Assembly: GCA_035703635.1 (NCBI GenBank)
Contig: DASSXV010000079.1
Location: forward strand, 1-42,261
Length of the DNA stretch: 42,261 nt
Reading direction: 5' to 3'
Origin: Trueperaceae bacterium
GTDB taxonomy: Bacteria > Deinococcota > Deinococci > Deinococcales > Trueperaceae
Numbering within the stretch: the first letter of the stretch is position 1; each line of letters starts with the position of its first letter. Made by a program: the position numbers. Below, one piece after another: positions 15,801 to 24,662 of this stretch.

Positions 15801-18800
15801 GAGAAGACGACCGTCATGCGCTCGCGGTCGGGGATGCAGAGCTGGTCGTGCAGCTTGAAGGGGTCGGTGGTGCTTGGGAAAGCCAAGTCGTAGACCTTGA
15901 GGTCTTCGTCGTCCCGGCTGCGTCCGATCTTGGTGTCGCTGCACACCGCGAAGGAGCGGAGTGGCACGTGCGAGTCACCCGTCCACTCGCCCAGTGTCTG
16001 GGAGAGCAGTGATAAAGACGGAACGAGGAATAGGACGTTGCCGCCTGCGCCGACCATGGTCTCTGCGATCTTGAGGCTGGTGAAGGTCTTGCCGGTTCCG
16101 CAGGCCATGATGAGCTTCCCGCGATCGGCCTTCTGTAGACCCGCTACGACGTTGGCGTGAGCTTCGACCTGGTGCGGCCGCAGCTGCTTCTTAGGCAGCA
16201 GCTCCATGTCCTCTGGCCGCTGGAGCGTGAACTGGCCCCAGTCGATGGGACTGCTAGCGAGGTCCTGAATGCGGAGGCGGCTGACAGGTATCTGTTGGTT
16301 GGCTAGCGCTTCTTCGGCGTGCTTGCTCCAGCGGTCGCTGGTGCTGACGACGAGTCGGCCCTTGAACGGGTGTTTGCCGCTGGCGGTGAAGAACGAGTCG
16401 ATGTCGCTCTTTTGGAGCAGGTAGCCAGGCTGGTGGAACTTGCACTGGATGGCGATGTAGTCGCCGGTATCGCGCTCTTGGGCTACCAGATCGATGCCGG
16501 TGTCGACTTGTACGCCGCGTTCTGGCCAGTCGTTCCAGAGCCAGACGCTACTGAACCGCTGGGCGTACATGGGGTCGGTGCGGAGGTAGCTGAGGATGAG
16601 CCGTTCGAGCTTGTCGCCCTTGTCGCGGTTGCTCGTGGCTGTTGTGGCTAAGTGTTCGAGGACTGCATGGATGCCTACGCCGCTTCCCGCGCCCCCGACG
16701 CCGTGCTCTTGATAGAGAGACATGTAGCTCGGATCGTACGTTGCTGCGCTCGCTTGACCCGCTAGAACATTCACATCTGAGTAGACTGATTTCGTCAGTT
16801 TTGTCTGGTGCAGGCAGCAGATTACGACGACCGGGTTTGCAGTTCGAGGGTTCATACTTATGGCCGCGTTGGTCGGCCAGTACAAGATGTGGTACTCACG
16901 GTTGACGACCGCTGCTATACCCGGTACCTTAAATAATGAGCCCGCCCGGAGCTGGCTCCGAACGGGCTGGCTAGCGTGACGGCACAGCCTATCAAGGTTC
17001 CGGGCCACCAGTCGATACTGGGAGTCTTGGGCCGGAGGGGAGGGTTCCCCAAATGGGTAAGCGTGCCAGAAGCGCCGTGACGGGTCGATTCGTCAAGAAA
17101 TCGACAGCAAGACGAAACCCTCGCACCACCGTCCTGGAAAGCACGAAGCCGCAAAAGGGCCGGACCGAAGTAACGGCTGCACGGAGCGCCGTTGACGGTC
17201 GTTTCGTTACCAAAGCTGCCGCAGAACGACGGCCGAAGACCACCGTTATAGAGAAGTTCAAGCGGTGACCCGAGGGCCCCGGCTTCGGCCGGGGCCCCGA
17301 CTTCCACGAGGCAGCTACAAGCGTCGATCAATGTCACATTCGGGACGAACGCTGACAAGGTACTGTGGAGTCGCAGACGAGAAGGCCCCAGTACTTGTCG
17401 ACTGGGCGGTTGTAGAGAAACTACTCGATGAACACCGCACACTATGGAGGGACAGGAGGCTCGAGTCGTCCCCGGACTCCTCAGCCGGGCAGTTTAGGCA
17501 GACTCCCGACGGGCACAGGTCAGGCGTGTAACGCCGCCTACAACTATGGCGCGTATGGAAGATGCGAACTATGTTTCAGATTCCTCGCGACCTAACTCAA
17601 TAACGCCGATCAGGTTTCTCTGTAGGTACGGCCAAGCTTCACTCGCGCCGTCAAAGTACTCGTTCCTCTTTGCGATTGACCAGTACTGCCGGGCTTCCTC
17701 ATATCCGGGTGTCTGGGTTCGCCGGAGAAGGTCCACCCACTCCCTAAAGTTGGCAACTGTAGGAGTCTCATTCTCCCGAGCATAGTGCTCCCCAGGATCT
17801 ACTAGCGCGACCAGCTGAGTCAGACCGTCGATGCCCACGAAGTGGCTGAGCGGTACCGAGTGCCCTTTGTCGGGGTGATAGCAGCTTCCCCTTGGTGACT
17901 TCGGCTGGTGATGAACAATCCGGAACCCGACATAGTCGCCGCCGGTGCCCCCCCACTCAACGTAACCATCCTCTACAGAAGCGATCTTTTCTCCGCAGTG
18001 ATCGCATATCCACTCTTGCAACGGAATGAGTTCCACTTTTGTCTCCTCCACGGTCCTTGCGGCGACTGAGTTAAGTACTCGGTGCCTCTGAACGCTTAGG
18101 TGCCCGCCTAGGAGCAGGCCGGACCGCCGGTAACATACCAACAGAGTAAAGGGATTCATAGGCTGGTGATGAGCCATTGTTCGGGGCCGCGGCATGCGAC
18201 TCCGAACAGCTTAGCGAGCGCCATCAGGAGTCCTGTGTCGCGCCCCGCATCTAGCAGAAGCCGTGTGTGGGACCACGTTGCGGCACTTGTCGATTTCGGA
18301 CATCATGTACTACTTGCTGATGGCATGCTAATGGTTGCTAGATGATAGAGCCGCTCTAGGCTAGGAATATCACTGGTTTAAGTGCGTTCGCCACATGGCG
18401 GGCACATTCGCGTGACCTTTCCCGGCGCGGCTACCTAGTTTCAGTTCCCAGCTAACGGCTTACCTCGTCCAGGTAGGCGCTTAGGATTCTTGAGGATGGG
18501 TAGCTCGACATGGACGCGATTCCGTTCGCTAGCTCAATTGGGAACAATGCGCCCTCGAACCTGTGACTGAGTAGGCTAGGCAGAGTCGCTAGGATTCGGT
18601 CGAGGCCGATAAGGTCATCGGCTGTCGGGAAGTTCCCCGAGGGATCATAGGCGCCAGTGGGTACGCTAAGCACAAGGTGTGTCCCTGGCGCAAACTTCAC
18701 GTACACTTTTTCGCCCCAGTTAGTCCTTGACCCGTAGGGACTCGCCTGTTCGGGAGATCTATGGACCTCGCGGCGCACGTAGTCGTGTGAGAGAACATAT

Positions 18801-21800: not shown

Positions 21801-24662
21801 TCATTTCGTGTCTCCCCCTCTATTGTGTAGCTAGGACAACGAGCTCCTCGTACTGTTTCCGCATTTTCGGCTTTGCTGAAATCGAGCTGAAACGGGAGAC
21901 CGTTTCAATCTCGAAGTCATACTTGGCGTAAAGCGCACGCAGGGACGGATGGTTCGCGTTAGTAGCTACCACTAAAGCGCCACGGTCACGTGCTTCTGCT
22001 AGGGAGCGTGCGAGGCGCTCCTGATCCTGCCACGAGAACAACCGCTCGTTGTACTTAATGAAGCCATTGAGATTGTGGCTAACAGTATACGGGGGATCCG
22101 CAAAGATTAGGTCGCCCTCTTCTGCCTCGTCGATAAGCGGCTGAAAGTCGCTAGCTAGCAGTTCTGTGTCGGCTAGAAGCTCTGAGACCGCATCGAAGGC
22201 ATCTGTATCCAGCAGAACGCGGTCTTTTGTGCCGATGGGAACGTTGAACTGCCCCTGCTTATTGACGCGGTAGATCCCGTTAAAACAAGTCCGGTTTAGG
22301 TAGATTGCTCGAGCAGCCAACTCCAACGGGTTCGTTGGGCTGCTGCCCCTCACCTTGTAGTAGTAGGCCTTGCAGTGTCTCGCCTGATGGTGCGAGAGAA
22401 GCCGAGTGATGCCTTTCCAGTCATCTCTCACCGCTTGATAGGTGGTGATGAGCTCTGCGTTTGTATCTCCGAGCGTGGCCGATTGGGGGCGGAGGTAAAA
22501 AAACACTGCGCCAGCACCGAGAAAGGGCTCAATGTAGCGGTTGAAGGTTCTGGGTAACAGTTCACGGTGGTTTGTAACGAACCACCGCTTGCCGCCGGGC
22601 CACTTAAGAAATGGACCTGCCTGCTTTTCGGAATGACTAGTAGTTTTGTCCATGCGACTCTAAGAACCCCCGCCCTATCCCAGTTCCTTGGCTGGTTCGA
22701 GTGGTTTTCCAACACGAACGAGCGCGCTTGGCGGCTGCCCCCGCCCTAGATAATGTCGGCTCCACTCCATAGGTGTGAGTTGGCCCCTTTACTGGCTGAT
22801 AGTTCCGTCAACTGTAACAGGCGTTCTGTTGAGGTGCACTCCCATACCCTCGTGGGAGGACGACGTCCGCTACCGGCCTGGTAGAACTCAATTCATCACT
22901 TACAAGTGCAAGGCCCGGGGTTCCATAGTAGGGGCATCACTTCTAGGGTCGACACGAAGCACGCCGGTACGGCGTTCTCGCCATTTGGTTAGAGATACGT
23001 TGTGGCGTCGAACGATCCTAATTCTGGGCGGGAGCTCGTGGCAGGCCCATGTTGCACCCGCCACGGCCAAGGCTATCTACTTCGTTCCTGGAGACTTAGG
23101 CAAGCCTCTTGTAGATTGAGGTGATCTGACGCAGAGCGCTGTAGCAGGCCTTGCTCTTGCCCATCGTCTGGGGGTTGTGGTTAGCGATCTCCTGATATGC
23201 AGAAGCCGCAACCCCAATAAGCTCGGCATCCAGCTCATCTTCGTCGACCCTCTCGGACGGTTGGATCTTCCAGCCGTCCGCAGTCTTAACGGCGAAGACA
23301 GACAGAGAGGCCAGGATAGGGAAGATGATGCCGTCGGGAATCTCGACGATTCGATTGCGATCGTCTCGCTCGATGCTCCGGATTCGGGTACCAACGAAAC
23401 CGCCGTGGGTCTTCCACTTGTTGTACAGCTGAAGGGCCTGCGCGGGCACATCTAAGTAGAACTCGTAGAGCGCCTTGTTCTTCTTGTGGTCCGGAGACTT
23501 CGGATCCTTGGCGCTCTCAAAGATCTTCTGGAAGTCCTTAAGGCACCTGGTCTTCTGGCTGTAGGTGTAGGCCTTGTTCACTTCGCCCGGCCGACCCCTT
23601 TCCTCAGGGGACAGTAACAGCTCTTCCGGAACGAGCGCTGCTGTCACTTGCAGAAGACGTTCCGTAGCGACAAAATCTTCGGATAGATCCGTTTCGGACT
23701 TCCGCAGCTTCATGTCTGGATCCTGCCGCTGCAGGCTAGCTTCAAGTTCGTCGAGTTGCCCCAGGCGCCCGGCGATGGAGATCGACATCACATCGTTCTG
23801 GAAGTTTCTAGCGATAGACGTCTCAGCAATGAGGTCTTCATCGTCCGTGACGATCACCTCGTACTTGACGAGGACGTCGCTGATGAGATTTTCAGGACCA
23901 CCGATTTCTTTCAAATAGTCCTTAATGACGCCCTGGGTTTGAGAGCCATTAATTATGCTTGGGCCGACTAGCCTCAAGATTCTCTTGGAGTCGTCGACCT
24001 TGCAGTCTCGGGCCACGATGACCACCCCACTGTTCAACACGGAAAAGTTGTCCGAGTTGTTCTGGAGGGTGTCTCGAATGGCTGTGTGGACTTGCTTAGG
24101 AACCTTCTTGCGACCCGGAACGTCCATTAGGTAGGCCCGGACGTTTTCGTCTGTGGGCAGACCAACGATGGATGAGATCGGCGCTTGACCGACGTACACC
24201 CTGCGTCCGTACTCTTGTTCTTTGGCTGAGGATATGTTTCTGATCGAGTCGGCCTGGAACTCGAAAGTCCGGCCCATGGGGACAGCGCTTGCGTCACTCA
24301 TTTTGTACCTCCTGGCTCTGGTCATCCGGTCAAGGCCGCCGAGATCCACTCGGGGCAGGATGTACCGCCGACGCAAGGTGTACCACGAGGACCCGCGTCT
24401 CGTCAACCCATCCAGATCCACGTCCGCGTCTAGTGTCTGTGGCGCCATGCACAATGGTCGCTAGTAGGGCGAGCTGAACACGGGGCGGCTGCAATGGGCT
24501 CTCGAACACATCGAACACATGCAGCTGTACAGCTTATGTACAGCTTATCGAGCGCCATCAGGTGTACCGGACCGGCCCGAGGCGGCATGGCTACCGCTAG
24601 AAGCCGCGTGTAGGACCACGTTTCGCCACTTGGCGATTTCGGGCATCACGTACTGCTTGCAG

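What a model noticed while it worked through the whole genome (the two positions that open the first line are those of the whole stretch)
18452..22653. Dam methylase - HerA-like ATPase - NurA-like nuclease cassette: candidate new restriction-modification-like system
A low-GC, horizontally acquired operon encodes a Dam-family methylase (21820-22653), a 669-aa HerA-like ATPase (19795-21804) and a 444-aa NurA-like nuclease (18452-19786), all on the minus strand. The same three genes occur in the same order in many phyla and in prophage-like contigs. More distant HerA-NurA pairs sit beside other methylases. I read it as an uncatalogued RM-like defence module, a methylation-based relative of TdpABC.
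Evidence so far: - **Methylase.** TIGR00571, 221.5 bits against a cut-off of 114.85, with FLGAG and DPPY motifs. - **ATPase.** DUF87 3e-14, Walker A and B motifs, and best PDB hit TdpA at 6.6e-27. - **Nuclease.** No Pfam, NCBIfam or PADLOC family. ESM Atlas gives TM 0.79 and feature scores of 0.96-0.97 to NurA clusters. - **Spread.** 188 species genomes encode a relative. Of the 80 best loci, 77 have the ATPase and 68 the methylase, in fixed order. 3 of 3 viral contigs have the full cassette. There are 701 representatives at E<=1e-3. - **Exchangeable methylase.** 5 of 5 distant in-phylum pairs lie next to another methylase. - **Foreign origin.** GC is 0.539 against 0.66-0.67 in the flanks. It is found in 0 o [...]
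(Added by a program. Inside this text positions count along the whole contig: contig position 1 is position 1 of the stretch shown here. "Call 12" and the like, gene names such as g00115 and contig names such as C1 are that model's own, and its searches are not shown. The text may have been shortened before it was handed on; [...] marks where a part breaks off. The agent that wrote the report below was given it as the finding of a first reader that could run no searches.)

Follow-up and report, generated by a model that had tools for sequence, protein, structure and literature searches.

The report
Methylase-guarded HerA-NurA DNA-cutting defence cassette
Three tightly linked genes (a DNA adenine methylase, a ring-shaped DNA motor and a nuclease) look like an uncatalogued restriction-modification-like defence system that uses methylation where its closest studied relative, TdpABC, uses sulfur in the DNA backbone.

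Summary
Three minus-strand ORFs (Dam-family methylase 21820-22653, HerA-like ATPase 19795-21804, NurA-like protein 18452-19786) form one operon, with 15- and 8-nt spacers, inside a 20.8-kb island inserted at tRNA-Ala. The island also carries an integrase, a Type ISP restriction enzyme, an ArdC-like gene and an AIPR/AbiU-like gene.

The methylase-ATPase-nuclease order recurs in 10 of 10 assessable species genomes, including one archaeon, and in 16 of 16 assessable metagenome contigs. It also lies between cI and int of a temperate phage. In the window's phylum, 14 of 14 assessable pairs sit beside a DNA methylase. The methylase class and its position differ between nuclease clades, and Tdp-like loci carry a PAPS-reductase-like gene instead.

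My reading (0.68): a methylation-gated, Tdp-like ATP-dependent restriction module, new as a variant. No function was tested. Thermus ICEth1 uses a similar gene set for DNA donation. The Tdp primary paper could not be read.

The parts
21820..22653 (-). Dam-family (D12 class) N6-adenine DNA methyltransferase, 277 aa; proposed modification (self-marking) subunit
   Evidence: Family hits: Pfam PF02086 2.8e-42; TIGR00571 221.5 bits against a cut-off of 114.85; PADLOC MTase_II 4.3e-97. The best solved relative is the GATC methylase DpnM (2dpm) at 2.2e-51; E. coli Dam scores 2e-24. FLGAG and DPPY are present. DPPY is kept in 14 of 14 cassette methylases.
19795..21804 (-). HerA/FtsK-type P-loop ATPase, 669 aa; proposed hexameric DNA translocase
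18452..19786 (-). NurA-fold (RNase H-like) nuclease with an inserted Cys4 zinc ribbon, 444 aa; proposed DNA-degrading subunit
22654..22774 (.). Upstream intergenic region between the methylase start and the divergent orf114; presumed promoter region of the operon
   Evidence: Sequence read. The sigma-70 consensus scan found no site here, so the promoter is inferred from gene layout only.
3835..3880 (+). Left attachment repeat of the host island (3' part of tRNA-Ala 3804-3879)
   Evidence: ARAGORN tRNA-Ala. A 46-nt exact direct repeat matches 24663-24708. An integrase lies at 4034-5167.
24663..24708 (+). Right attachment repeat of the island
   Evidence: Direct repeat family D1. Core-like genes and GC of 0.65 or more resume to its right.
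18206..18343 (+). Degenerate copy of the island's right arm; it separates the integrase/Type ISP segment from the segment holding the cassette, orf114 and the AIPR gene
   Evidence: Repeat D12. Pairwise alignment with 24540-24680.
11903..17008 (-). Neighbouring Type ISP / IIG restriction-modification fusion enzyme (context, not part of the cassette)
   Evidence: Pfam Type_ISP_C 1.5e-113, ISP_coupler, Mrr_cat_2, ResIII and N6_Mtase. PADLOC REase_MTase_IIG, 2269.9 bits. Not conserved beside the cassette elsewhere.
23096..24454 (-). Neighbouring AIPR / AbiU-like abortive-infection-type gene (context)
   Evidence: Pfam AIPR 5.2e-23. PADLOC AbiU 1.7e-15. Not conserved beside the cassette elsewhere.

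Best explanation
The cassette is a mobile, three-gene, methylation-based restriction-modification-like defence module built on the TdpAB chassis.

Proposed mechanism:
1. The Dam-family enzyme methylates adenine in host DNA. The site is probably GATC, inferred from its closest solved relatives.
2. The HerA-like ATPase forms a ring translocase, and the NurA-like nuclease docks on it. This is inferred from TdpAB and HerA-NurA structures.
3. The machine loads on DNA and degrades it using ATP.
4. Methylated self DNA is spared. Unmethylated incoming phage or plasmid DNA is destroyed.

Shown here: the folds, intact catalytic motifs, the operon, obligatory linkage to a DNA-modification gene whose chemistry varies between clades, horizontal mobility, and defence-island or lysogeny-module context.

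Inferred: complex formation, the methylation site, that methylation blocks the motor or nuclease, and the anti-phage phenotype. How a ring translocase would read a base methyl group is unknown. The conserved zinc ribbon inserted in the nuclease is a candidate reader (speculation).
For: 2. Active sites are conserved in all three proteins.
3. Fixed synteny. The methylase-HerA-NurA order occurs in 10 of 10 assessable species-genome loci, out of 21 found. It occurs in 16 of 16 assessable metagenome loci, out of 51 found. Fourteen of these have a Dam-like methylase and 2 have a longer, divergent D12 methylase.
4. Exchangeable modification gene. In the window's phylum, 14 of 14 assessable HerA-NurA pairs of this family abut a DNA methylase. 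The arrangements are: D12 class upstream in 4, D12 downstream in 1, PF01555 downstream in 7, and PF01555 upstream in 2. Methylase class and position follow the nuclease clades: 6 label changes over 30 rows, against a shuffled mean of 14, and as low in 0 of 200 shuffles. Two intact loci whose HerA resembles TdpA hold a PAPS-reductase-like gene in the modification slot.
5. Shared history of the three genes. Mantel r is 0.79-0.88, with 0 of 2000 permutations as high.
6. Context. The window island carries Type ISP R-M, ArdC-like and AIPR/AbiU-like genes. Five of 10 related loci have known restriction or abortive-infection genes within 5 kb, and others lie in mobile elements. In a temperate-phage contig the cassette lies between the cI-like repressor and the integrase, on the repressor's strand. 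In a Vibrio temperate phage a related pair lies between int and xis, with a D12 methylase.
7. Not housekeeping. The cassette was found in 0 of 17 same-genus genomes and in 16 of 364 genomes of the phylum. The window's nearest relatives are betaproteobacterial.
8. Decay pattern typical of R-M. The ATPase is broken in 3 loci where a methylase gene still stands. No intact Dam-clade pair without a methylase was seen.
Against: - No functional, methylome or biochemical data exist for any member that I could find.
- A comparable set in Thermus ICEth1 (Type IIG enzyme, NurA-like, TdtA, PF01555 methylase) is needed for DNA donation. Loss of its methylase reportedly had only minor effects (PMC5365140 and PMC7767461, passages read). 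That is not what a strict R-M system predicts.
- The window's island resembles ICEth1: it is integrated at a tRNA, has lower GC, and has a Type ISP enzyme 1.4 kb away.
- One plasmid clade (Tolypothrix; two more cyanobacterial hits were not inspected) has HerA-NurA with an RNase_T-STAND fusion and no methylase.
- TdpA senses a backbone sulfur (recalled from the abstract of An et al. 2025, not read). That mechanism does not transfer directly to a base methyl group.
- The Pfam NurA model does not hit the window protein itself.
- A sequence profile of the family finds no NurA or TdpB chain in the PDB.
- hhalign to a TdpB-like protein is weak: E 4.6e-4, probability 33%.
- GATC is neither depleted nor enriched, O/E 0.86-1.14, which says nothing either way.
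Confidence: 0.68

Rival explanations
1. The cassette is a DNA-processing or DNA-donation module of the mobile element, as in Thermus ICEth1. A restriction enzyme nicks or cuts donor DNA. The NurA-like nuclease and HerA/FtsK-type motor then process and push DNA out of the cell or into transfer. The methylase is accessory.
For: ICEth1 carries TthHB27I (Type IIG), a NurA-like protein (377 aa), TdtA and a PF01555 methylase (410 aa) in one operon. It sits on a 14.9-kb, lower-GC island flanked by 47-bp tRNA repeats. The NurA-like protein and TdtA are required for transjugation (PMC5365140 and PMC7767461, passages read). The window island is alike in outline: a 46-nt tRNA-Ala repeat, an integrase, and a Type ISP fusion enzyme 1.4 kb from the cassette.
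Against: - Neither the Type ISP gene nor any other window neighbour accompanies the cassette in 21 related loci.
- The cassette occurs between housekeeping genes (L003), in an archaeal chromosome (L018), and in the cI-int module of temperate phages.
- Gene order (methylase-HerA-NurA) and methylase class differ from ICEth1.
- Obligatory methylase linkage has no explanation under a donation role.
- No conjugation genes were found in the window island.
- Direct homology to TdtA and TTC1878 could not be tested, because no sequence was held.
Confidence: 0.12
2. The cassette is mainly a selfish addiction (post-segregational killing) module that stabilises the island or prophage, with little role against phages. 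Loss of the cassette dilutes methylation, and the long-lived nuclease-motor complex then kills the cell.
For: The evidence is the same as for an R-M-like system: tight methylase-nuclease linkage and carriage on islands, plasmids and prophages. Many Type II R-M systems behave this way (established knowledge).
Against: This is not exclusive of defence. Placement in lysogeny modules and beside other anti-phage genes fits defence equally well. There are no data on protein stability. Broken ATPase genes in 3 loci show that the restriction side can be lost.
Confidence: 0.08
3. The pair is a HerA-NurA double-strand-break end-resection (repair) machine, as in archaea and Deinococcus, with an unrelated orphan Dam next to it.
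For: The folds are those of HerA and NurA. Some database records name relatives "DNA double-strand break repair nuclease NurA".
Against: The cassette lies in a foreign island. It was found in 0 of 17 same-genus genomes. No Mre11 or Rad50 was found among the 22 window ORFs scanned. Methylase linkage holds in every assessable Dam-clade locus. The closest solved relatives are the defence proteins TdpA and TdpB, not the repair pairs.
Confidence: 0.03

Closest known systems
TdpABC (phosphorothioate-based defence of thermophiles; PDB 8wet, 8wfd, 8y1k; An et al. 2025, Nat Chem Biol, not readable here)
   Same: The ATPase is the closest sequence and fold relative of TdpA. The nuclease is the closest fold relative of TdpB. 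Both systems have three genes: one modification gene plus a motor and a nuclease. Loci whose HerA resembles TdpA were found in the same phylum as the window, so the two kinds coexist in related hosts.
   Different: - The modification gene is a D12 adenine methylase, not a PAPS-reductase-like TdpC.
- Gene order is modification-motor-nuclease, not modification-nuclease-motor.
- The nuclease is about 70-85 aa longer and carries a Cys4 zinc ribbon.
- Identity is 24-25% for the ATPase and 13% for the nuclease.
- The range spans many phyla and mesophiles.
Thermus ICEth1 DNA-secretion operon (TthHB27I, NurA-like TTC1878, TdtA, methylase TTC1880)
   Same: A NurA-like nuclease, a HerA/FtsK ATPase and a DNA methylase in one operon, on a tRNA-integrated, lower-GC island that also has a Type IIG/ISP-type enzyme (for ICEth1; for the window).
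   Different: The order is nuclease-ATPase-methylase. The methylase is PF01555 class. The demonstrated role is DNA donation, and the methylase is reported as dispensable for it. Sequence relationship to the window proteins was not tested.
Canonical HerA-NurA end-resection complexes (Sulfolobus, Thermococcus, Deinococcus)
   Different: No Mre11/Rad50 linkage. Horizontally mobile. Methylase-linked. The window protein is missed by the Pfam NurA model.
Sir2-HerA and DUF4297-HerA anti-phage systems
   Different: The effector is a NurA-fold nuclease, not Sir2 or DUF4297. A modification gene is present, implying self/non-self marking rather than abortive infection.
Classical ATP-dependent R-M (Types I, III, ISP), and Dnd/Ssp/BREX-type modification-based systems
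   Same: The logic is the same: a modification enzyme marks self, and an NTP-driven machine attacks unmarked DNA. Swapping of modification chemistry on one chassis is also reported for CxC-DndE systems with cytosine methylases (PMC10853773, passages) and for BREX type 4 with phosphorothioate (PMC12914056, title and abstract).
   Different: The motor is a HerA/FtsK ring ATPase, not an SF2 helicase. The nuclease has an RNase H-like NurA fold, not PD-(D/E)xK, HNH or PLD.

Membership tests
TdpABC | TdpA-type HerA ATPase | tested here: met
TdpABC | TdpB-type NurA-fold nuclease | tested here: met
TdpABC | TdpC, a PAPS-reductase-like phosphorothioation enzyme, as the modification gene | tested here: not met
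   The modification slot holds a D12 methylase. No PAPS_reduct hit appears among the 22 window ORFs scanned. Tdp-like loci L084, L085 and L086 do have one.
TdpABC | Phosphorothioate in host DNA protects against the nuclease | not testable with these tools
   Needs chemistry or biochemistry.
Dam family (TIGR00571 / Pfam D12 class) | Score above the curated cut-off; SAM-binding FxGxG motif and catalytic DPPY motif | tested here: met
   221.5 bits against 114.85. PF02086 at 2.8e-42. FLGAG and DPPY are present.
Dam family | GATC specificity | not testable with these tools
   Inferred only from the best solved relatives, DpnM and E. coli Dam. The E. coli Dam equivalog model scores 122 bits against a cut-off of 441.
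NurA (Pfam PF09376) | Match to the family model | tested here: inconclusive
   The window protein has no hit. Fifteen of 74 aligned homologues hit, best 3.4e-8.
NurA (Pfam PF09376) | RNase H-like NurA fold with motifs I and II (DG) and motif III | tested here: met
Canonical HerA-NurA repair system | Linkage with mre11/rad50, or vertical inheritance as a housekeeping pair | tested here: not met
   No such genes among the 22 window ORFs. Found in 0 of 17 same-genus genomes. The cassette lies inside an att-flanked island.
ICEth1-type DNA secretion system | Operon of Type IIG enzyme, NurA-like, TdtA and PF01555 methylase, in that order | tested here: not met
   The order here is D12 methylase-HerA-NurA. 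The Type ISP gene is separated from it by two ORFs and is not conserved with the cassette.
ICEth1-type DNA secretion system | Orthology to TdtA and TTC1878; requirement for DNA donation | not tested
No ICEth1-like locus was seen among the 5 extra HerA loci examined (L084-L088).
Sir2-HerA / DUF4297-HerA | Sir2 or DUF4297 effector next to HerA; HerA_antiphage equivalog score | tested here: not met
   No such domain in the neighbours. NF042943 scores 48.8 bits against a cut-off of 800.
MADS | Eight-gene set mad1-mad8 | tested here: not met
   Only weak mad8 (1e-9) and mad2 (0.0035) profile hits on the ATPase and the methylase. No other mad genes among the 9 proteins scanned.

The most novel reading that the evidence does not exclude
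Modification gene + HerA-type ring translocase + NurA-fold nuclease is a pan-prokaryotic class of ATP-dependent restriction systems, with TdpABC as only its thermophile, sulfur-using branch. On one motor-nuclease chassis the self-mark has been swapped repeatedly: phosphorothioate, D12 m6A, and PF01555 N6/N4 methylation. The ring motor or the nuclease's zinc ribbon therefore reads chemically different marks while threading DNA. The Thermus ICEth1 'DNA donation' machine would then be a domesticated member of the same class.
Probability: 0.35. Interest if true: 0.85.

Novelty: new variant of a known kind. Interest (0 to 1): 0.66.

Why it matters
If confirmed, this adds a widespread restriction-modification-like family to the catalogue. 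The nuclease family has 572 representative clusters at 50% identity and 1748 near-length homologues. Current defence finders appear to miss it, since no PADLOC v2 model hits the nuclease.

It would show that the TdpAB motor-nuclease chassis is not tied to phosphorothioate or to thermophiles. It accepts interchangeable self-marks, which gives a natural series for asking how a ring translocase tells modified from unmodified DNA.

It would also prompt a second look at the Thermus transjugation machinery, and at the many "orphan Dam" and "DSB repair nuclease NurA" annotations in genomes, prophages and plasmids.

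Tried and rejected
- Sequence profile of the nuclease family against PDB sequences: only zinc-ribbon noise, E >= 0.28. 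The link to NurA and TdpB came from fold comparison and from Pfam hits of distant members.
- The single-sequence PDB search for the nuclease gave nothing.
- Promoter and terminator consensus scan of 17400-23200: fewer sites than in shuffles, and none placed usefully.
- GATC observed/expected in the cassette, island and core: 0.86-1.14, uninformative.
The single-protein scan found 1 contig.
- I looked for an ICEth1-like locus among other HerA hits in the phylum. The 5 loci opened were Tdp-like (L084-L087) or a NurA-HerA-DruA-like trio (L088).
- The Tdp primary paper is not held. DefenseFinder and REBASE are not available.
- Ten literature searches found no paper in the held library describing a methylase-HerA-NurA defence system. 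PMC10853773, on HerA/FtsK capture systems, has 0 occurrences of 'NurA'. A 2026 review states without detail that bacterial NurA-HerA complexes act in immune defence (PMC13748450, passage).
- Not run: complex prediction. A HerA-NurA pass would rest on likeness to solved complexes, and I make no claim that the methylase binds.
- Not run: RNA-seq look-up.
- Methylation-dependent (Type IV-like) restriction was considered and rejected, because the operon encodes its own active-looking methylase.

Full report
**What is there**

Three minus-strand ORFs sit at the coordinates given: 21820-22653 (277 aa), 19795-21804 (669 aa) and 18452-19786 (444 aa). They are packed as one operon. The methylase stop is followed by 15 nt containing AGGGGGAG and then the ATPase ATG. 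The ATPase stop is followed by 8 nt and then the nuclease ATG.

- TIGR00571: 221.5 bits against a cut-off of 114.85.
- Pfam D12 methylase: 2.8e-42. DUF87: 3.1e-14.
- TdpA is the best PDB sequence match of the ATPase, at 6.6e-27.
- The third protein has no Pfam, NCBIfam or PADLOC hit.
- ESM Atlas scores are 0.96-0.97 by features and TM 0.79 to NurA-bearing clusters.

**Setting**

The cassette lies in a 20.8-kb integrated island. A 46-nt exact repeat of the 3' part of tRNA-Ala (3835-3880) recurs at 24663-24708. Between the repeats lie:
- a tyrosine integrase;
- a DUF3987 protein;
- a Rad52-like protein;
- an ArdC-like protein;
- a 1701-aa Type ISP restriction-modification fusion enzyme;
- two small ORFs;
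- the cassette;
- a divergent 114-aa ORF;
- an AIPR/AbiU-like gene.

A degenerate copy of about 140 nt of the island's right arm lies at 18206-18343. The cassette and the AIPR gene therefore form a second segment, probably accreted. GC is 0.52-0.61 from about 11000 to 25000 and 0.62-0.68 elsewhere. The whole cargo region is foreign, not only the cassette.

**The nuclease**

A phmmer search of 1.84 billion representatives gave 572 relatives at E<=1e-3. I aligned 74 full-length ones. Fifteen of the 74 match Pfam NurA on their own, best 3.4e-8, although the window protein does not.

The AlphaFold2 model from that alignment is confident: pLDDT 93.5, pTM 0.91.
- Foldseek against the PDB ranks TdpB first (chain G of the TdpAB complex, 8wfd, 3.8e-10). 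NurA from Thermococcus, Pyrococcus, Deinococcus and Sulfolobus follow, then TM1739, then endonuclease V.

The NurA motifs described in PMC13748450 (passages read) are kept across the family:
- Motif I DG: D67 in 73/74, G68 in 71/74.
- Motif II DG: D266 in 73/74, G267 in 72/74.
- Motif III: position 421 is N in 62 and H in 10 of 74.
- Also conserved: D212 (74/74), E238 (72/74), E302 and K303 (73/74).
- A Cys4 zinc ribbon is present in 64-67 of 74.

**The ATPase**

**The methylase**

Its nearest solved relatives are the GATC methylases DpnM (2.2e-51) and E. coli Dam (2e-24). GATC specificity is an inference. DPPY is kept in 14 of 14 cassette methylases.

**Conservation of the cassette**

- Species genomes: a scan returned 21 loci. 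All 10 with a full-length nuclease and enough upstream DNA have methylase-ATPase-nuclease in the same order. They come from Pseudomonadota, Bacteroidota, Bacillota and a methanogenic archaeon. The other 11 are cut by contig ends or are fragments. No other window neighbour is conserved.
- Metagenomes: a scan returned 51 loci. Of the 16 assessable, 16 have the ATPase and 14 have a Dam-like methylase in order. The 2 exceptions have a longer, divergent D12 methylase in the same place. Some metagenome contigs duplicate genome loci, so the two counts are not fully independent.
- Shared history: pairwise distances of the three proteins are strongly correlated across 14 loci. Mantel r is 0.79-0.88, with 0 of 2000 permutations as high. 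Any linked genes would show some correlation.

**Exchangeable modification gene**

In the window's phylum (364 genomes searched), 16 genomes including the window's own carry a family member. None of the 17 same-genus genomes does. I opened the neighbourhoods. All 14 assessable pairs abut a DNA methylase:
- D12 upstream: 4 (G000, G207, G151, G055).
- D12 downstream: 1 (G028).
- PF01555 downstream: 7.
- PF01555 upstream: 2.
Two loci could not be assessed because of contig ends.

A maximum-likelihood tree of 30 nucleases places each methylase class and position in its own clade. It needs 6 label changes, against a shuffled mean of 14, and as low in 0 of 200 shuffles. This was a 'quick' search with three long branches, so deep nodes are unsure.

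A search with the ATPase also found loci in small genomes of the same phylum. Their HerA aligns like PDB TdpA. Their neighbours are a PAPS-reductase-like gene and a 378-403 aa protein with the LFIKDG motif. These are Tdp-like loci, in the order modification-nuclease-motor.

Outside the phylum:
- A Deferribacter megaplasmid, a haloarchaeal plasmid and a Vibrio temperate phage have a methylase beside the pair.
- A Tolypothrix plasmid has an RNase_T-STAND fusion instead, and no methylase.

**Context elsewhere**

Five of 10 related genome loci have known restriction or abortive-infection genes within 5 kb: GmrSD, Type III-like R-M, AAA_21+RloB, PLD-helicase and Mrr. Others sit in a mobilisable or conjugative element, and one lies between housekeeping genes.

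In a 33-kb viral contig the cassette lies directly after the cI-like repressor, on the same strand, and before the integrase. This is the place where temperate phages commonly keep exclusion genes; lambda rexAB is the recalled example.

The restriction-side genes are broken in several loci where a methylase gene still stands: G061, G024 and Deferribacter. That is the usual direction of decay for R-M systems.

**Interpretation**

The best-supported reading is a methylation-based, Tdp-like, ATP-dependent restriction module. It is not a member of TdpABC, because the defining TdpC gene and its chemistry are replaced. It most likely works like TdpABC. I put this at 0.68.

The main rival is an ICEth1-like DNA-donation role (0.12). 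In ICEth1, a Type IIG enzyme, a NurA-like protein, TdtA and a PF01555 methylase form one operon on a tRNA-integrated island. The nuclease and motor are needed for transjugation, while the methylase is reported as nearly dispensable (PMC5365140 and PMC7767461, passages). The window island resembles this in outline. However, the cassette's wide, context-independent spread, its place in phage lysogeny modules, and its obligatory methylase linkage fit defence better. The two roles need not exclude each other.

Pure addiction (0.08) and DSB repair (0.03) are less likely.

**Novelty**

Ten searches of the held literature found no description of a methylase-HerA-NurA defence system. The paper on HerA/FtsK capture systems never mentions NurA. 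The Tdp primary paper, its supplements, DefenseFinder and REBASE could not be consulted, so prior mention there cannot be excluded. I rate it a new variant of a known kind, with interest 0.66.

Noticed in passing
window 3804-24708: A 20.8-kb integrative island at tRNA-Ala, bounded by a 46-nt exact repeat (3835-3880 and 24663-24708). It carries an integrase, a DUF3987 protein, a Rad52-like protein, an ArdC-like metalloprotease protein, a Type ISP R-M enzyme and an AIPR/AbiU-like gene. It has the make-up of a defence island on a mobile element.
   Followed up: partly
window 3938-3970 and 24527-24548: The 11-nt unit GTACAGCTTAT is repeated about three times next to the left att and twice next to the right att. 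These may be integrase arm-type binding sites.
   Followed up: no
window 18206-18343 versus 24540-24680: An internal copy of about 140 nt of the island's right arm ends where the att core would begin. It suggests tandem accretion of two related elements, the second of which (cassette, orf114, AIPR gene) has no integrase of its own.
   Followed up: partly
window 16915-17442, 17569-18195, 22775-23119: Three small ORFs (175, 208 and 114 aa) around the cassette have no Pfam, NCBIfam or PADLOC hit. The 208-aa ORF hits an unknown-function phage family (phrog_35745, 1.6e-14). None is conserved beside the cassette elsewhere.
   Followed up: partly
L088 (G222:C3) 6049-10194: A Pfam-positive NurA (413 aa), a HerA (558 aa) and a DruA-like protein (Druantia DruA, 7.7e-61) lie in a row. 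This may be another HerA-NurA defence variant.
   Followed up: no
L123 297-7332: A DndB-like protein (PF14072, 8.5e-12) and a 285-aa ORF precede a long, divergent D12 methylase-HerA-NurA cassette. A Dnd-type regulator may be recruited to this system.
   Followed up: no
L145, L146, L147: Three metagenome contigs share the same remnant. Methylase residues 11-157 abut nuclease residues 343-443, as if one internal deletion had removed the ATPase and parts of both neighbours.
   Followed up: no
L098 (Tolypothrix plasmid NZ_CP050441.1) 3635-10338: An HTH regulator, HerA and NurA are followed by an RNase_T exonuclease-STAND NTPase fusion, with no methylase. This clade may be triggered by a sensor rather than gated by modification. 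Two similar cyanobacterial plasmid hits were not opened.
   Followed up: partly
L084, L085, L086, L087 (genomes G257, G233, G258, G031): Tdp-like loci (PAPS-reductase-like gene, NurA-like gene, TdpA-like HerA) occur in small genomes of the window's phylum. L087 is called Tdp-like on its HerA match only; its neighbours were not scanned. In L085 the nuclease gene is interrupted by a DDE transposase.
   Followed up: partly
own genome G000: No Pfam NurA match was found anywhere in the 97.65%-complete genome. The cassette ATPase is the only strong DUF87 hit, so the host seems to lack a housekeeping HerA-NurA pair.
   Followed up: partly
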